Shown here: positions 3,648-59,996 of the stretch, piece by piece | Numbering within the stretch: the first letter of the stretch is position 1 | How the letters are laid out: the number at the start of each line of letters is the position of its first letter | NCBI RefSeq assembly: GCF_055900595.2 | Contig: NZ_CM148325.1 | Length of the DNA: 64,000 nucleotides | Direction: 5' to 3' (one strand) | Program-made: the position numbers and the translations under genes | The notes under the pieces: generated by a model | The model's input: the letters and a program-made list of their open reading frames with translations, nothing else | Database searches by the model: none | What the model was told of the DNA's origin: nothing

Positions 3648-3875
3648 CGTTAAGAGTTTCTCTTCCTGAAACGTTTCGCGGAATGATACTAGTGTAGCCA
3701 GCCAATAAGGGAGAAAAATGGAGGAATTATGAAACACTGTCGGGAATCGTCTGAATGGCAGGCACTTTTGCGAGCACGCATCCAGTAATAACACAGGAAA
3801 CTATTTTATCTGCGCGTTAGCGATAGACTGCATTCAGGGCAAAAGGAGGTAGGCCGACGATTTCAGCGGGACGCT

Positions 3876-4018
3876 GAAACGGGAAAGCCCCTCCCGAGGA
3901 AGGGGCCTTAAATAAGGAAAGGGTCATGATGAAGTGGATCATCATCGTGGTGCTCTTAGTCGTTAGCTACCCAGCTTACTAAGACTACCAGGGCGGGGGA
4001 AACCCCGCTCAACCCTCA
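3876..4018 (-). ncRNA. sib: Sib-family antisense sRNA (antitoxin), copy 1; ends approximate
   Basis: Reverse-strand promoter: -35 TTGACA (4053..4048), 17-bp spacer, -10 TATTTT (4030..4025). Fully antisense to ibs copy 1. Hairpin 3887..3907 plus U-rich tract on the minus strand is the candidate terminator. Confidence 0.6.
3926..3982 (+). CDS. ibs: Ibs-family type I toxin peptide, copy 1 (MMKWIIIVVLLVVSYPAY)
   Basis: 18-codon hydrophobic ORF with ATGATG start and RBS-like aggaaagg upstream, inside the first 328-bp tandem repeat. Matches Ibs toxin family features. Confidence 0.75.
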   Translation: MMKWIIIVVLLVVSYPAY

Positions 4019-4203
4019 CTCCTGAAAATATGCCTTCACGGTCAGAATGTCAATCCGCAGGCTTTGCAGTCTGCGATCCTGCCAGCAAATATTCTTTGCG
4101 AGTCGTTACGCAATAATCACAGATGAAACTATTTTATCTACGCGTTAGCGATAGACTGCATTCAGGGCAAAAGGAGGTAGGCCGACGATTTCAGCGGGAC
4201 GCT

Positions 4204-4346
4204 GAAACGGGAAAGCCCCTCCCGAGGAAGGGGCCTTAAATAAGGAAAGGGTCATGATGAAGCTACTCATCATCGTGGTGCTCTTAGTCATTAGCTTACC
4301 GGCTTACTAAGACTACCAGGGCGGGGGAAACCCCGCTCTACCCTCA
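4204..4346 (-). ncRNA. sib: Sib-family antisense sRNA, copy 2; ends approximate
   Basis: Reverse-strand -35 TTGACA at 4381..4376 with -10 TACTTT at 4358..4353 (17-bp spacer). Antisense to ibs copy 2. Confidence 0.55.
4254..4310 (+). CDS. ibs: Ibs-family type I toxin peptide, copy 2 (MMKLLIIVVLLVISLPAY)
   Basis: Same architecture as copy 1, displaced exactly 328 bp. Confidence 0.75.
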   Translation: MMKLLIIVVLLVISLPAY

Positions 4347-4531
4347 CTCCTGAAAGTATGCTTTCACAATCAGATTGTCAATCCGCAGGCTTTGTAGTCT
4401 GCGATCCTGCCAGCAAATATTCTTTGCGAGACGTTACGCAATAATCACATGTGAAACTATTTTATCTGCAAGTTAGCGATAGACTGCTTGCATGGCGAAA
4501 GGAGGTAGGCCGCCGATTTCAGCGGGACGCT

Positions 4532-4675
4532 GAAACGGGAAAGCCCCTCCCGAGGAAGGGGCCTTAAATAAGGAAAGGGTCATGATGAAGCTACTCATCA
4601 TCGTGGTGCTCTTAGTTATTAGCTGGCCAGCTTACTAAGACTACCAGGGCGGGGGGAAACCCCGCTCTACCCTCA
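4532..4675 (-). ncRNA. sib: Sib-family antisense sRNA, copy 3; ends approximate
   Basis: Reverse-strand -35 TTGACA at 4710..4705; weaker -10 (TAACTT). Antisense to ibs copy 3. Confidence 0.5.
4582..4638 (+). CDS. ibs: Ibs-family type I toxin peptide, copy 3 (MMKLLIIVVLLVISWPAY)
   Basis: Third repeat unit, 328 bp after copy 2; same start context. Confidence 0.75.
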   Translation: MMKLLIIVVLLVISWPAY

Positions 4676-4856
4676 CTCCTGAAGTTATGTTACTCCACCC
4701 TTATTGTCAATCTGTAAGTCCACGTTCTTGCGGGGCGAATAGCAAAACCCTCTGCGCTTATGGGCCGAATTCTGAAAGTTGCTTTGCCTGCTCTTATTTC
4801 ATTGTTGCAGTCGGTATGATACCGGACCTCAATAATTCTCTAAGAAAGGATTTCTT

Positions 4857-39666: not shown

Positions 39667-39694
39667 GTTGTTGTTTTCGGTTCCGACAACGGTT

Positions 39695-40172
39695 GCCGGG
39701 TGCAGCGTAAAACGCCTTATCCATCCTACGGTTCTGTGCTCGGGACCTGTAGGCCTGATAAGACGCGTCAGCGTCGCATCAGGCACTGAATGCCGGATGC
39801 GGTGTGAACGCCTTATCCGGCCTACGGTTCAGGGCTTGGATCTTGTAGGCCCGATAAGACGCGCCAGCGTCGCATCAGGCACTGAATGCCGGATGCGGCG
39901 TAAAACGCCTTATCCGGCCTACGGTTCTGTGCTCGGGTCTTGTAGGCCTGATAAGACGCGCCAGCGTCGCATCAGGCACTGAATGCCGGATGCGGCGTGA
40001 ACGCCTTATCCATCCTACGGTTCTGTGCTCGGGACCTGTAGGCCTGATAAGACGCGTCAGCGTCGCATCAGGCACTGAATGCCGGATGCGGCGTGAACGC
40101 CTTATCCGGCCTACGGTTCTGTGCTTGGATCTTGTAGGCCTGATAAGAGGCGTCAGCGTCGCATCAGGCAAA
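39695..40172. repeat. Large BIME array: about five tandem units (period about 94-101 bp) of alternating REP palindromes
   Basis: Repeated gcctgataagacgcg...cgtcgcatcaggc and gccggatgcggcg...gccttatccggcctacgg units between wzxC and wcaK. Confidence 0.85.
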
Positions 40173-45505: not shown

Positions 45506-46796
45506 CAGGGAAAGATTATCAGAAGTACACTTTTTGTACTAAATAATTCGCATTTTATGTTCAAAAATTGAGATATCCCTCATTACCTAAAACTGTTTTT
45601 CACAGCTTATATATGATCAAATACTCCTTGCTTAAATAAGGAGAACAAAATGGAACTTAAAAAATTGATGGAACATATTTCTGTTATTCCCGATTACAGA
45701 CAAGCCTGGAAAGTGGAATATAATTTGTCGGATATTCTACTGTTGACTATTTGTGCCGTCATTTCTGGTGCAGAAGGCTGGGAAGATATAGAGGATTTTG
45801 GGGAAACACATCTCGATTTTTTGAAGCAATATGGTGATTTTGAAAATGGTATTCCTGTTCACGATACCATTGCCAGAGTTGTATCCTGTATCAGTCCTGC
45901 AAAATTTCACGAGTGCTTTATTAACTGGATGCGTGACTGCCATTCTTCAGATGATAAAGACGTCATTGCAATTGATGGAAAAACGCTCCGGCACTCTTAT
46001 GACAAGAGTCGCCGCAGGGGAGCGATTCATGTCATTAGTGCGTTCTCAACAATGCACAGTCTGGTCATCGGACAGATCAGGACGGATGAGAAATCCAATG
46101 AGATTACAGCTATCCCTGAACTTATTAACATGCTGGATATTAAAGGAAAAATCATCACAACTGATGCGATGGGTTGCCAGAAAGATATTGCAGAGAAGAT
46201 ACAAAAACAGGGAGGTGATTATTTATTCGCTGTAAAAGGAAACCAGGGGCGGCTAAATAAAGCCTTTGAGGAAAAATTTCCGCTGAAAGAATTAAATAAT
46301 CCAGAGCATGACAGTTACGCAATGAGTGAAAAGAGTCACGGCAGAGAAGAAATCCGTCTTCATATTGTTTGCGATGTCCCTGATGAACTTATTGATTTCA
46401 CGTTTGAATGGAAAGGACTGAAAAAATTATGTGTGGCAGCCTCCTTTCGGTCAATAATAGCAGAACAAAAGAAAGAGCCAGAAATGACGGTCAGATATTA
46501 TATCAGTTCTGCTGATTTAACCGCAGAGAAGTTCGCCACAGCAATCCGAAACCACTGGCACGTGGAGAATAAGCTGCACTGGCGTCTGGACGTGGTAATG
46601 AATGAAGACGACTGCAAAATAAGAAGAGGAAATGCAGCAGAATTATTTTCAGGGATACGGCACATCGCTATTAATATTTTGACGAATGATAAGGTATTCA
46701 AGGCAGGGTTAAGACGTAAGATGCGAAAAGCAGCCATGGACAGAAACTATCTGGCGTCAGTCCTTGCGGGGAGCGGGCTTTCGTAATCTTGCCCTG
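45506..46796 (+). mobile_element. ISAs1-family insertion sequence (H-repeat-like), about 1.29 kb
   Basis: Imperfect terminal inverted repeats: cagggaaagatta at 45506..45518, and cagggcaagatta as the reverse complement of 46784..46796. Encloses a single intact transposase ORF. Boundaries approximate. Confidence 0.75.
45650..46786 (+). CDS. ISAs1-family transposase (H-repeat-associated protein, 378 aa)
   Basis: ATG at 45650 with RBS aaggag. The sequence [50 protein letters not shown]... is characteristic of H-repeat/YhhI-family DDE transposases. Confidence 0.85.
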
Positions 46797-50361: not shown

Positions 50362-51396
50362 ATGTTTTCATCTAAAACACTGTTAATTACTGGTGGTACT
50401 GGCTCTTTCGGGAATGCTGTATTAAATAGATTTCTTGATACAGATATTGCAGAAATCCGTATATTTAGTCGTGATGAAAAAAAACAAGATGATATGCGGA
50501 AAAAATACAATAATCAAAAATTAAAGTTCTATATTGGTGATGTCAGAGATTACCGTAGTATTTTGAATGCGACTCGCGGTGTTGATTTTATATATCATGC
50601 AGCGGCACTTAAGCAAGTTCCATCATGTGAATTTCATCCTATGGAAGCCGTTAAAACTAATATCCTTGGTACGGAAAATGTTCTTGAAGCAGCTATAGCG
50701 AATGAAGTGAAGAGGGTTGTATGCCTAAGTACTGATAAAGCTGTATACCCGATTAACGCAATGGGTATTTCAAAAGCTATGATGGAAAAGGTCATGGTCG
50801 CGAAATCCCGTAATGTTGATCGCAATAAAACAGTAATATGTGGTACCCGTTATGGGAATGTTATGGCATCTCGCGGTTCAGTTATTCCATTATTTGTTGA
50901 TCTTATTAGAGCGGGCAAGCCACTCACAATAACTGATCCTAATATGACCCGCTTTATGATGACTCTTGAGGATGCGGTAGATTTAGTTCTTTATGCGTTT
51001 GAACATGGTAATAATGGTGATATCTTTGTGCAAAAAGCACCTGCAGCAACTATTGACACATTAGCTATTGCTTTAAAGGAATTACTAAATGTTCCAGACC
51101 ATCCGGTAAATGTCATTGGAACGCGTCATGGCGAGAAATTATATGAAGCTCTACTTAGTCGTGAGGAAATGATCGCTGCTATAGATATGGGTGATTATTA
51201 CCGTGTCCCGCCAGATCTTCGTGACCTTAATTATGGCAAATATGTTGAGCAAGGTGATAGCCGAATATCTGAAATAGAAGATTATAACTCTCATAATACT
51301 CAACGGTTAGATGTTGAAGGCATGAAAGAGCTCTTGCTAAAATTAGCCTTTATTCGAGCAATTCGTGCTGGTGAAAAATATAATCTGGATTCATGA
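50362..51396 (+). CDS. fnlA: UDP-GlcNAc 4,6-dehydratase/5-epimerase FnlA (344 aa)
   Basis: N-terminus MFSSKTLLITGGTGSFG; CapE/WbjB-type SDR. Confidence 0.88.
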   Translation: MFSSKTLLITGGTGSFGNAVLNRFLDTDIAEIRIFSRDEKKQDDMRKKYNNQKLKFYIGDVRDYRSILNATRGVDFIYHAAALKQVPSCEFHPMEAVKTNILGTENVLEAAIANEVKRVVCLSTDKAVYPINAMGISKAMMEKVMVAKSRNVDRNKTVICGTRYGNVMASRGSVIPLFVDLIRAGKPLTITDPNMTRFMMTLEDAVDLVLYAFEHGNNGDIFVQKAPAATIDTLAIALKELLNVPDHPVNVIGTRHGEKLYEALLSREEMIAAIDMGDYYRVPPDLRDLNYGKYVEQGDSRISEIEDYNSHNTQRLDVEGMKELLLKLAFIRAIRAGEKYNLDS

Positions 51397-58165: not shown

Positions 58166-58310
58166 CATCTTGTTATCAGGGCTATTTACGCCCTGATTGT
58201 CTTTTGTTACCTCCGCAATAATTCATTATTTTTATCGCTTATCCTATAGCATTCACGGGGATTATCGCTAAACTATGTGGACTTGGAAATTTCCGTCAGT
58301 TAGGGTAATG

Positions 58311-59288
58311 ATGAGAGTAGAAAATAATAATGTTTCTGGGCAAAACCATGACCCGGAACAGATTGATTTGATTGATTTACTAGTGCAGTTGTGGCGTGGC
58401 AAGATGACAATCATCATTTCCGTCATTGTGGCTATTGCCCTGGCTATTGGATATTTGGCAGTAGCGAAGGAGAAATGGACGTCAACAGCAATTATCACTC
58501 AGCCCGACGTGGGGCAAATTGCTGGCTATAACAATGCCATGAATGTTATCTATGGTCAGGCTGCGCCGAAAGTATCGGATTTACAGGAAACGTTGATTGG
58601 TCGCTTCAGTTCTGCCTTCTCTGCATTAGCAGAAACGCTGGATAATCAGGAAGAGCCAGAAAAGCTTACCATCGAACCTTCTGTTAAGAACCAGCAATTA
58701 CCATTGACTGTTTCTTATGTTGGGCAAACTGCAGAGGGCGCACAAATGAAGTTGGCCCAATACATTCAGCAAGTTGACGATAAAGTGAATCAAGAGCTAG
58801 AAAAGGATCTCAAGGACAACATTGCTCTGGGACGGAAAAACTTGCAGGACTCTTTAAGAACGCAGGAAGTGGTTGCGCAGGAGCAGAAAGATCTGCGTAT
58901 CCGTCAGATTCAGGAAGCGTTGCAGTATGCGAATCAGGCGCAGGTGACAAAGCCGCAGATTCAGCAGACACAGGACGTAACCCAAGATACTATGTTCCTT
59001 TTGGGGAGCGAAGCGCTGGAGTCGATGATTAAGCACGAGGCGACTCGTCCGTTGGTGTTCTCATCAAACTACTATCAGACTCGTCAAAACCTGCTGGATA
59101 TCGAAAGCTTAAAAGTTGATGATCTTGATATTCATGCTTACCGCTATGTGATGAAACCGACGTTACCTATTCGTCGCGATAGCCCGAAAAAGGCAATTAC
59201 CTTGATTCTGGCGGTGCTGCTGGGCGGCATGGTTGGCGCGGGGATTGTGTTGGGGCGTAATGCTCTGCGTAATTACAACGCGAAGTAA
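58311..59288 (+). CDS. wzzB: O-antigen chain-length determinant WzzB (about 325 aa; start could be ATG at 58308)
   Basis: MRVENNNVSGQNHDPEQIDLIDL...; PCP-1 family with N- and C-terminal TM segments. Track ORF begins 12 codons upstream. Confidence 0.9.
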   Translation: MRVENNNVSGQNHDPEQIDLIDLLVQLWRGKMTIIISVIVAIALAIGYLAVAKEKWTSTAIITQPDVGQIAGYNNAMNVIYGQAAPKVSDLQETLIGRFSSAFSALAETLDNQEEPEKLTIEPSVKNQQLPLTVSYVGQTAEGAQMKLAQYIQQVDDKVNQELEKDLKDNIALGRKNLQDSLRTQEVVAQEQKDLRIRQIQEALQYANQAQVTKPQIQQTQDVTQDTMFLLGSEALESMIKHEATRPLVFSSNYYQTRQNLLDIESLKVDDLDIHAYRYVMKPTLPIRRDSPKKAITLILAVLLGGMVGAGIVLGRNALRNYNAK

Positions 59289-59305
59289 TCTTTGCAGCTT
59301 TAAAG

Positions 59306-59372
59306 AAAACGGGCAGGGTGGTGACACCTTGCCCGTTTTTTTTGCCGGATGCGACAACAACATCGCATCCGC
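59306..59372. terminator. Bidirectional terminator region between convergent wzzB and the his operon
   Basis: Hairpin cgggcagggtg...caccttgcccg flanked by A-run and T-run, followed by a second hairpin ggatgcga...tcgcatcc. Confidence 0.75.
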
Positions 59373-59384
59373 TTACCCCGCAAC

Positions 59385-59989
59385 TCACTGATGCCGTTTA
59401 CGCAGGTTCTCAATTACTGTCGTTAAATCCAGATCCTGATCCTGCAACAGCACCAGCAGGTGATACATCAAATCAGATGCCTCGTTGGTCAGCTCAAAGC
59501 GGTCATGTACAGTCGCGGCCAGTGCGGTTTCCACGCCTTCTTCGCCCACTTTCTGCGCAATGCGTTTGGTGCCGCTGGCATACAGTTTGGCAGTGTAAGA
59601 GGTTTCCGGGTCGGCAGATTTGCGTTCGGCGAGCAGTTGTTCCAGTTGATAAAGGAACAGCCACTGGTGAGCGGTGTCGCCGAAGCAGCTGCTGGTGCCT
59701 TTGTGGCAGGTCGGGCCGATGGGATTCGCCAGCAACAGTAACGTGTCGTTGTCGCAGTCCGGCGTAATATTTACTACGTTGAGGAAATTGCCCGACGTTT
59801 CGCCTTTGGTCCACAGTCGCTGTTTAGTGCGCGAGAAGAAGGTGACTTTGCCGCTTTCGATGGTTTTATCTAAGGCTTCCGGGTTCATATAGCCCAGCAT
59901 TAACACTTCACCGGATACCGCGTGTTGCACAATCACCGGCATAAGTCCGTCGGTTTTTTCCCAGTCCAGTTCGCGGCGTTGTTGTTCTG

Positions 59990-59996
<7 letters not shown>
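59385..59996 (-). CDS. hisI: Bifunctional phosphoribosyl-AMP cyclohydrolase / phosphoribosyl-ATP pyrophosphatase HisIE (203 aa)
   Basis: ATG at 59996; [25 protein letters not shown].... Confidence 0.96.

What the first reader, a model, noticed from the sequence alone, without database searches (positions are those of the whole stretch)
59300..59375. Compact bidirectional terminator shared by wzzB and the his operon
One hairpin is flanked by an A-run on one side and a T-run on the other, so it can terminate both convergent transcription units, and an adjacent second hairpin follows. This is a compact arrangement at the boundary between the polysaccharide region and the his operon, a known recombination hot-spot for O-antigen exchange.
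Basis: seen in the sequence. Interest (0 to 1): 0.15.

Follow-up and report, generated by a model that had tools for sequence, protein, structure and literature searches.

The report
Shared wzzB–his operon transcription terminator
This is the textbook two-way transcription stop signal that sits between the E. coli O-antigen chain-length gene wzzB and the end of the histidine operon, followed by a leftover of a common repeat element; it is real but ordinary and already described.

Summary
The window is E. coli, 99.994% identical to the O15 strain M160133.

**What is there**
- The 96-nt spacer lies between the wzzB stop (59286-88) and the hisIE stop (59385-87).
- Hairpin 1 has an 11-bp GC-rich stem (59310-20 / 59325-35, loop GTGA). 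It is flanked by AAAGAAAA (59302-09) and T8 (59336-43).
- It is the only such two-way terminator-like hairpin in the 64 kb. None of comparable strength appeared in 20 shuffles.

**Evidence for function**
- In K-12, Term-seq and SMRT-Cappable-seq both place the wzzB mRNA 3' end inside this T-run.
- An A-tract/hairpin/T-tract at the same position follows hisI in 54 of 61 enterobacterial loci that have a convergent wzz. These use more than 25 different stem sequences.
- The Salmonella his terminator was described as "convergently functional" in 1985.
- The his-direction 3' end in E. coli is not in the datasets I could read. On that strand the stem has a C·A mismatch and the U-tract is interrupted, so it looks weaker.

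**Hairpin 2 (59344-72)**
- It is not a terminator. It is a single-copy, REP-like palindrome.
- Roughly a quarter of sampled E. coli carry about 89 extra bases with two canonical REPs at this point. That polymorphism, and this spacer as a recombination junction, were published in 2011.

**Verdict:** already known; low interest.

The parts
58310..59288 (+). wzzB coding sequence (O-antigen chain-length determinant); stop TAA at 59286-59288.
   Evidence: ORF list. RefSeq annotation of the near-identical strain M160133. The K-12 transcription start 2098331 lies about 30 nt upstream of the annotated start codon, which supports 58310 rather than the ATG at 58275.
59302..59309 (.). A-tract AAAGAAAA. 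On the - strand it reads as the U-tract UUUUCUUU, which follows the hairpin in his mRNA.
   Evidence: Sequence. Always present but always interrupted in Escherichia alleles.
59310..59335 (.). Hairpin 1, the terminator stem-loop. Arms are CGGGCAGGGTG and CACCTTGCCCG; the loop is GTGA. Stem position 7 (59316/59329) is G·U in wzzB RNA and C·A in his RNA.
   Evidence: Folds. Core stem energy is -21.7 kcal/mol in the wzzB sense and -16.3 in the his sense. It is the only two-way terminator-like hairpin in the window.
59336..59343 (.). T8 run, the U-tract of the wzzB transcript. On the - strand it is the A8 run that precedes the hairpin in his RNA. The K-12 Term-seq 3' end corresponds to the 4th T, about 59339.
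   Evidence: Sequence. Term-seq 2097270(-) and the table layout. SMRT-Cappable-seq end 2097269. K-12 coordinates.
59344..59372 (.). Hairpin 2, a single-copy REP-like palindrome (GCCGGATGCGA...TCGCATCCGC). It lies in the his 3' UTR between the hisI stop and the terminator, and it is not itself a terminator.
   Evidence: Folds. Its head matches the REP head with 1 mismatch. No T-run on either strand and a negative terminator discriminant. One copy per genome. In long alleles two canonical REPs sit just upstream of it, and a 10-bp direct repeat CCGGATGCGA flanks the extra segment.
59385..59996 (-). hisIE coding sequence, the last gene of the his operon; its stop codon reads TCA on the + strand at 59385-59387.
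   Evidence: ORF list; annotation.

Best explanation
Hairpin 1 with its two flanking tracts (59302-59343) is a bidirectional intrinsic (Rho-independent) terminator shared by two convergent transcription units.

wzzB direction. RNA polymerase coming from wzzB transcribes the A-tract, the 11-bp GC-rich hairpin (with one G·U pair) and a U8 tract, and releases within the U-tract. This step is shown for K-12.

his direction. Polymerase coming from the his operon first transcribes hairpin 2. It then transcribes an A8 run, the same hairpin read on the other strand (with one C·A mismatch) and UUUUCUUU, and terminates there, probably less efficiently. This step is inferred from anatomy, cross-species conservation and the Salmonella precedent.

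Hairpin 2 (59344-59372) is a REP-derived palindrome that ended up between the hisI stop and the terminator in the Escherichia lineage.
- It has no U-tract and is not a terminator.
- It is part of the his 3' UTR. At most it adds a stable 3' structure to his mRNA.
- It provides short repeats for the REP insertion/deletion polymorphism and for recombination at this boundary.
For: Anatomy and statistics:
- Folding z-scores are -8.3 and -5.6 for hairpin 1 with its tracts.
- It is the only two-way terminator-like hairpin in 64 kb, and none of comparable strength occurs in 20 shuffles.
- A terminator discriminant is positive on both strands, about +57 in the wzzB sense and +18 in the his sense. It is negative for hairpin 2, at -36 and -59.

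Experimental data for K-12:
- A Term-seq 3' end lies at 2097270(-), the 4th T of the T-run, in 2 of 3 growth conditions.
- SMRT-Cappable-seq shows a full-length monocistronic wzzB transcript from 2098331 to 2097269 in both conditions.
- The hisBHAFI unit ends with hisI.

Conservation:
- The spacer is present at 80% coverage or more in 4529 of 5426 complete E. coli genomes.
- A scan anchored on hisI codons gave 120 species loci. In the 122 loci analysed (these plus E. coli alleles and the window), 72 have a two-way terminator-like hairpin within about 200 nt of the hisI stop.
- That is 54 of 61 loci with a convergent wzz, against 18 of 61 without.
- These hairpins use more than 25 different complementary arm sequences.
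- Trabulsiella has AAAAAAACGGGCA-TTAC-TGCCCGTTTTTTT, which has the same outer stem as E. coli.

Precedent: the Salmonella his operon terminator was published as convergently functional and Rho-independent, and is reused as a strong terminator 'His-T'.
Against: - No his-strand 3' end at this site appears in the curated Term-seq lists for three conditions, including minimal medium. The held SMRT-Cappable-seq tables give no end position for the his unit either.
- On the his strand the stem carries a C·A mismatch, and the U-tract is interrupted in every Escherichia allele seen (TTTTCTTT, TTTCTCTT, TTTCCCTT and others). The discriminant falls to about +3 in the Nord8-type allele.
- A bicyclomycin-sensitive region at K-12 2096632(-), antisense to hisI/hisF, suggests that some wzzB-strand transcription passes the hairpin. 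The 800-nt window used there also covers the wzzB 3' end, so this evidence is weak.
- I could not read the 1985 and 1988 primary papers. That the tested Salmonella sequence equals the hairpin I see in S. arizonae and S. diarizonae is inferred from position.
- The discriminant formula (d'Aubenton-Carafa type) was recalled from memory and used with modern energy parameters, so its values are approximate.
Confidence: 0.85

Rival explanations
1. In E. coli the hairpin works as an efficient terminator only for wzzB. His transcripts mostly read through into antisense wzzB, or are ended by Rho or by 3' processing. The A-tract is then an inherited remnant with little function.
For: - Only the wzzB-strand 3' end is listed in Term-seq and SMRT-Cappable-seq.
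- On the his strand the stem has a mismatch and the U-tract is always interrupted. The discriminant is +18 here and about +3 in the long Nord8-type allele.
- Conway et al. 2014 report that 276 of 370 convergent E. coli operons terminate inefficiently.
Against: - The A-tract is retained in all Escherichia alleles.
- The architecture is strongly tied to the presence of a convergent wzz: 54 of 61 loci against 18 of 61.
- The his-strand fold is still -16 to -21 kcal/mol and is followed by 7 U in 8 positions.
- The curated 3'-end lists are thresholded, so absence from them is not evidence of absence.
Confidence: 0.12
2. Termination here is driven or assisted by head-on collisions between converging RNA polymerases at a stem-loop. 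This is the 'overlapping bidirectional terminator' model of Ju et al. 2019 and Wang et al. 2022, as opposed to two independent intrinsic termination events.
For: The site lies between a convergent gene pair and contains a stem-loop. The preprint states that such sites control hundreds of E. coli genes.
Against: - That class is described as not resembling intrinsic terminators. This site has canonical U-tracts on both strands.
- The wzzB 3' end falls inside the U-tract, as expected for intrinsic release.
- I could not read the SEnd-seq site list, so whether this pair is on it is unknown.
Confidence: 0.08
3. Hairpin 2 is itself functional. It could be a REP-type stabiliser or processing barrier for the 3' end of his mRNA, or a back-up block for polymerases that read through from wzzB.
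For: - It is a stable palindrome (-15 to -17 kcal/mol) and is retained in both the short and the long alleles.
- Two stem pairs show changes on both sides in some alleles (UPEC 26-1, E69). The covariation score was reached by 14 of 500 shuffles.
- Similar GCCGGATG...CATCCGGC hairpins coincide with mapped 3' ends at other E. coli loci, such as can/hpt in the Term-seq table.
Against: - The covariation is weak: 3 cells among 10 related sequences, and the other measures do not exceed the shuffles. Broken intermediates exist (MP1, Z142-3).
- It is absent from every non-Escherichia genus examined.
- No 3' end is listed at it on either strand.
- It is not annotated as a REP in NC_000913.3.
Confidence: 0.15
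4. The palindromes are chance features of an intergenic spacer.
For: None beyond the general abundance of short inverted repeats.
Against: - No shuffle folded as well, on either strand.
- No shuffled window gave a comparable two-way hairpin.
- Conservation holds in thousands of E. coli genomes and across genera.
- A mapped RNA 3' end lies in the T-run.
Confidence: 0.01

Closest known systems
Terminator of the Salmonella typhimurium histidine operon ('convergently functional, Rho-independent terminator', Carlomagno, Riccio & Bruni 1985, J Bacteriol 163:362), reused as 'His-T'
   Same: - Same genomic position, between the hisI(E) stop and a convergent wzz gene.
- Same architecture: A-tract, GC-rich stem-loop, T-tract.
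- S. arizonae and S. diarizonae show AAAAAAACCGGGC-AACG-GCCCGGTTTTTT, beginning 3-5 nt after the hisI stop.
   Different: - The E. coli stem is longer (11 versus 6 bp) and has a different sequence (CGGGCAGGGTG...). It carries a non-Watson-Crick position in the middle.
- Its his-side U-tract is interrupted.
- It lies 49 nt from the hisI stop rather than a few nt, because hairpin 2 sits in between.
- I could not read the 1985 paper itself.
Generic bidirectional intrinsic terminators between convergent genes (A-tract upstream, U-tract downstream)
   Same: It has all the sequence features. A-rich tracts upstream of terminator hairpins are described as the hallmark of bidirectional terminators in Term-seq surveys (PMC12207403).
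   Different: Nothing substantive. The strength is asymmetric: the wzzB side is stronger than the his side.
REP/BIME elements of E. coli (repetitive extragenic palindromes), including the published REP insertions and deletions in the hisI-wzz spacer (Iguchi et al. 2011, PMC3158064)
   Same: - The head of hairpin 2, GCCGGATGCGAC, is the REP head.
- Long alleles carry two canonical inverted REPs immediately next to it.
- The REP insertion/deletion in hisI-wzz, and its coincidence with a recombination junction, are published.
   Different: - The 3' arm of hairpin 2 is perfectly complementary to the head (TCGCATCCGC) instead of the REP tail CTTATCCGGCCTAC.
- As a 33-mer it is single-copy per genome.
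- It is not annotated as a REP in the K-12 reference record.
Collision-dependent 'overlapping bidirectional terminators' (Ju et al. 2019; Wang et al. 2022 preprint, 10.1101/2022.10.23.513370)
   Same: A convergent gene pair with a stem-loop between the two genes.
   Different: That class is described as lacking intrinsic-terminator features. This site has them on both strands.

Membership tests
Bidirectional intrinsic (Rho-independent) terminator | Stable GC-rich stem-loop | tested here: met
   The stem is 11 bp with 8 G-C pairs. Core energy is -21.7 kcal/mol (+ strand RNA) and -16.3 (- strand RNA). No shuffle folds as well.
Bidirectional intrinsic (Rho-independent) terminator | U-rich tract immediately 3' of the stem on both strands (A-tract on one side of the DNA, T-tract on the other) | tested here: met
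   T8 on the + strand (59336-43). TTTTCTTT on the - strand (59309-02), which is 7 of 8 and interrupted.
Bidirectional intrinsic (Rho-independent) terminator | Lies between convergent transcription units, just downstream of both stop codons | tested here: met
   The stem begins 21 nt after the wzzB stop, and 49 nt after the hisIE stop when read on the his strand.
Bidirectional intrinsic (Rho-independent) terminator | RNA 3' end maps in the U-tract, wzzB strand | tested here: met
   Published K-12 data: Term-seq 2097270(-), the 4th T of the run, and SMRT-Cappable-seq end 2097269. The K-12 allele differs from the window by a few bases.
Bidirectional intrinsic (Rho-independent) terminator | RNA 3' end maps in the U-tract, his strand | tested here: inconclusive
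   No his-strand 3' end near 20973xx appears in the Term-seq lists or in the held SMRT-Cappable-seq tables. Both lists are thresholded. The primary S1-mapping papers are not held.
Bidirectional intrinsic (Rho-independent) terminator | Termination by RNA polymerase alone, independent of Rho | not testable with these tools
   This needs in vitro transcription or Rho inhibition at this site. The only Rho-related datum is a bicyclomycin-sensitive region about 640 nt further on, antisense to hisI/hisF.
Ortholog of the Salmonella his operon terminator | Same position and flanking genes (hisI stop, then terminator, then convergent wzz) | tested here: met
   S. arizonae, S. diarizonae and most Enterobacteriaceae loci have the same layout.
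Ortholog of the Salmonella his operon terminator | Recognisable sequence homology of the hairpin | tested here: inconclusive
   The stems differ: CCGGGC in Salmonella against CGGGCA...GGTG in E. coli. Trabulsiella (CGGGCA-TTAC-TGCCCG) shares the E. coli outer stem, which suggests descent with an extended stem. The element is too short to prove this.
REP (repetitive extragenic palindrome) element, for hairpin 2 | Match to the REP consensus head GCCGGATGCG(A/G)CG | tested here: met
   12 of 13 positions match at 59344-59356. The window has 31 such matches against 4.4 expected.
REP (repetitive extragenic palindrome) element, for hairpin 2 | REP tail (...CTTATCCGGCCTAC) and membership of a multi-copy family | tested here: not met
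   The tail is ATCGCATCCGCTTAC. The 33-mer occurs once per genome. No REP feature is annotated here in NC_000913.3. It is therefore REP-like or REP-derived, not a canonical REP.

The most novel reading that the evidence does not exclude
The least ordinary reading not excluded concerns the Escherichia-specific features of this spacer. Those features are the extended stem with a position that is never Watson-Crick paired (G opposite T, A or G, never C), the always-interrupted his-side U-tract, and the REP-like hairpin 2 with its polymorphic neighbouring REP pair. Under this reading they together tune an asymmetric terminator: tight for wzzB and leaky for his. Antisense transcription into wzzB would then vary between alleles and influence O-antigen chain-length control. 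The REP repeats would at the same time set the recombination boundary for O-antigen exchange.
Probability: 0.07. Interest if true: 0.3.

Novelty: already known. Interest (0 to 1): 0.07.

Why it matters
It matters little beyond correct annotation.
- The element marks the true 3' ends of wzzB and of the his operon.
- It explains why the two convergent units are largely insulated from each other.
- It lies at a documented junction for the recombination events that swap O-antigen clusters.
- The cross-genus comparison shows a terminator whose structure is conserved while its sequence turns over. That principle is already established.

Tried and rejected
**RNA families**
- Rfam at permissive thresholds gave only sub-threshold hits. 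The best were snoR135 at 21.6 bits and Ysr276 at 19.4 bits against a gathering score of 100.
- All are driven by the generic terminator hairpin or by the wzz coding sequence. I rejected them as family assignments.

**Built-in terminator scan**
- It reported only a truncated + strand stem and missed the - strand, because the C·A mismatch splits the stem. I replaced it with my own scan.

**Literature that was not held or gave nothing**
- Not held: Carlomagno 1985, Alifano 1996, Winkler & Ramos-Montañez 2009, Ju 2019 and Batchelor 1992.
- Dar & Sorek 2018 and Conway 2014 have no held supplements.
- The TERMITe supplements mention neither gene.
- Searches for 'bidirectional terminator' plus 'his operon', and for 'hisLGDCBHAFI', gave nothing relevant.

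**Other checks**
- Hairpin 1 as a REP: rejected. It does not match the REP consensus and is single-copy.
- Covariation within Escherichia for hairpin 1: none, because the stem is nearly invariant. For hairpin 2 it is weak.

Full report
**What the window is**

The 64-kb window is E. coli chromosome. It matches strain M160133 (an O15 urinary isolate) over its whole length with 3 mismatches and 1 gap.

The gene order is mdtB, then the colanic acid cluster, galF, an ISAs1 element, the O15 O-antigen cluster, gnd, ugd and wzzB, all followed by the convergent hisIE-hisF-hisA-hisH-hisB-hisC. The finding lies in the 96-nt spacer between the wzzB stop (TAA, 59286-59288) and the hisIE stop (59385-59387 on the - strand).

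**Checking the observation**

The spacer reads...TTT AAAGAAAA CGGGCAGGGTG GTGA CACCTTGCCCG TTTTTTTT GCCGGATGCGA CAACAAC ATCGCATCCGC TTACCCCGCAAC.

Hairpin 1 has these parts:

| Part | Sequence | Coordinates |
|---|---|---|
| A-tract | AAAGAAAA | 59302-59309 |
| 5' arm | CGGGCAGGGTG | 59310-59320 |
| Loop | GTGA | 59321-59324 |
| 3' arm | CACCTTGCCCG | 59325-59335 |
| T-run | T8 | 59336-59343 |

- Stem position 7 (59316/59329) is a G·U pair in the + strand RNA and a C·A mismatch in the - strand RNA.
- With its tracts, hairpin 1 folds at -30.0 kcal/mol (z = -8.3) on the + strand and -21.4 kcal/mol (z = -5.6) on the - strand. No shuffle did as well.
- Hairpin 2 (59344-59372) folds at -14.9 and -17.4 kcal/mol.
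- A scan I wrote for hairpins with a T-rich tail on both strands finds exactly one in the window, this one. Twenty dinucleotide shuffles gave 0.3 weak hits on average, and none with both strands at or below -15 kcal/mol.

**What hairpin 1 does**

A terminator discriminant (hairpin energy per nucleotide plus a weighted T-tail score) gave these values. I recalled the formula from memory, so the numbers are approximate.

| Element | wzzB sense | his sense |
|---|---|---|
| Hairpin 1 | about +57 | about +18 |
| Hairpin 2 | about -36 | about -59 |

Published K-12 data fix the wzzB-strand 3' end.
- Term-seq lists a 3' end at 2097270(-) in LB at OD 0.4 and in M63 glucose. The table layout (50 nt, then the 3' end, then 10 nt) puts it on the 4th T of the T-run.
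- SMRT-Cappable-seq reports a monocistronic wzzB transcript from 2098331 to 2097269 in both conditions.
- In window coordinates this 3' end is at about 59339.

For the his strand the evidence is thinner.
- The same studies list no 3' end position. SMRT-Cappable-seq only shows that the hisBHAFI unit ends with hisI.
- His-direction function in E. coli therefore rests on anatomy, on conservation and on the Salmonella precedent.

**Related sequences**

*Within E. coli*
- The spacer is present at 80% coverage or more in 4529 of 5426 complete genomes.
- The core GGGCAGGGTGGTGACACC(T/A/G)TGCCC is almost invariant.
- The base opposite G at stem position 7 is T, A or G in different alleles, never C.
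- The wzzB-side T-run has 6-9 T.
- The his-side tract is always interrupted.

*Across species*
- A scan of one genome per species, anchored on conserved hisI codons rather than on the terminator, returned 120 loci.
- Of the 122 loci analysed (these plus E. coli alleles and the window), 72 have a two-way terminator-like hairpin within about 200 nt of the hisI stop.
- That is 54 of 61 loci with a convergent wzz gene within 1.6 kb, against 18 of 61 without.
- Several of the 7 misses are obvious A/T-flanked hairpins with long loops that my criteria excluded.
- The stems differ by clade, with more than 25 complementary arm types overall:
  - CCGGGC in Salmonella, Citrobacter and Kosakonia;
  - CCGGGG or GACCGG in Enterobacter;
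  - GGCCGC in Cedecea;
  - CGCCCTCGA in Yersinia;
  - CGGGCA in Trabulsiella and Escherichia.
- The structure has been kept while the sequence turned over.
- S. arizonae and S. diarizonae carry AAAAAAACCGGGC-AACG-GCCCGGTTTTTT a few nucleotides after the hisI stop.

*Precedent*
- The Salmonella his terminator was published in 1985 as 'convergently functional, Rho-independent'. It is used as a strong terminator, 'His-T'.
- I could not read that paper. That the tested sequence is this hairpin is inferred from position.

**What hairpin 2 is**

- It has no T-run on either strand, so it is not a terminator.
- Its head, GCCGGATGCGAC, is the REP head. The window holds 31 such matches against 4.4 expected.
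- Its 3' arm is perfectly complementary to the head rather than the REP tail.
- The 33-mer is single-copy per genome.
- The K-12 reference record annotates no REP here.
- It occurs only in Escherichia, where it separates the hisI stop from the terminator.

A longer allele exists.
- It was seen in roughly a quarter of an evenly spaced sample of E. coli matches (11 of 40 rows). It also occurs in E. albertii and in Escherichia sp. E1V33.
- In it the spacer is about 89 nt longer. Two canonical inverted REPs sit between the T-run and hairpin 2.
- The extra segment is bounded by a 10-bp direct repeat, CCGGATGCGA. The short allele therefore looks like a deletion between the repeats, or the long allele like an insertion.

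Evidence for selection on the hairpin 2 stem is weak.
- Two stem pairs change on both sides in some alleles.
- Broken intermediates also exist, and the covariation statistics are weak.

Iguchi et al. 2011 already reported REP insertions and deletions in hisI-wzz, and this spacer as a junction of sequence similarity between strains.

**Mechanism and rivals**

The best explanation (confidence 0.85) is one intrinsic terminator read in both directions.
- It is strong for wzzB; this direction is shown by mapped 3' ends.
- It is weaker for his; this direction is inferred.
- Hairpin 2 is a REP-derived passenger in the his 3' UTR.

The rivals are:
- The terminator is effectively one-way in E. coli (0.12). 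This fits the missing his 3' end and the imperfect his-side features, but the lists are thresholded.
- Termination is assisted by polymerase collisions (0.08). That class is described as lacking intrinsic features, which this site has.
- Hairpin 2 has a function of its own (0.15, and not exclusive of the main explanation).
- Chance (about 0.01).

A bicyclomycin-sensitive region about 640 nt downstream on the wzzB strand hints at some read-through. Its measuring window overlaps the end of wzzB, so the hint is weak.

**Comparison with the known, and verdict**

- The element meets the sequence-level criteria for a bidirectional intrinsic terminator.
- It occupies the same position as the characterised Salmonella his terminator.
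- The accompanying REP polymorphism and the recombination junction are published.
- No Rfam family applies.

Interest is low. The remaining open point is a direct map of the his-strand 3' end in E. coli.

Noticed in passing
window 59316 and 59329; loci L002, L008, L089: In the terminator stem, the base opposite G at position 7 is T (window, K-12), A (Nord8 type) or G (strain E69), never the pairing C. The 11-bp stem is therefore never a perfect palindrome. In several alleles the changes are G·U-compatible on the wzzB strand but create mismatches on the his strand.
   Followed up: partly
L004 (E. coli PEC131, O8/O9-type) 2424-2461 and the hisIE 3' end: In this strain wbdC replaces wzzB. The spacer is 38 nt with a different hairpin (CCCCCGC...GCGGGGG, no T-run), like those of Klebsiella oxytoca and K. 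spallanzanii (L053, L058). The HisIE C-terminus is also Klebsiella-like. The exchange breakpoint therefore lies inside hisI, not in the spacer.
   Followed up: partly
L014 (E. coli strain a7): An IS1 element is inserted between the wzzB stop and the A-tract. It separates wzzB from the terminator, which stays attached to the his side.
   Followed up: no
window about 58280-58370 (wzzB 5' end): The longest ORF starts at 58275. The K-12 transcription start (2098331, about window 58280) supports the annotated start at 58310. Term-seq also lists 3' ends just inside the wzzB 5' end (K-12 2098289 and 2098243, about window 58322 and 58368). This hints at premature termination or processing.
   Followed up: no
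window 39694-40170: An array of about five tandem units of roughly 97 nt, built of REP elements (a BIME cluster), lies between wzxC and wcaK. REP insertions and deletions at this spot are reported by Iguchi et al. 2011.
   Followed up: no
window 3767-4683: Three tandem, diverged copies (about 90-94% identical) of an Ibs-family type I toxin locus lie between mdtA and yegL.
   Followed up: no
window 45650-46786: An ISAs1-family transposase gene sits between galF and the first gene (wzx) of the O15 O-antigen cluster.
   Followed up: no
window 50477-50484: An A8 run lies in fnlA. The otherwise near-identical strain M160133 has A7 and its fnlA is annotated as frameshifted. This is either a homopolymer slip site or a sequencing error in one of the two records.
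   Followed up: no
window 58175-58197: A terminator-like hairpin (ATCAGGGC...GCCCTGAT followed by a T-rich tail) lies directly after ugd and upstream of the wzzB promoter. This is consistent with wzzB being transcribed on its own.
   Followed up: no
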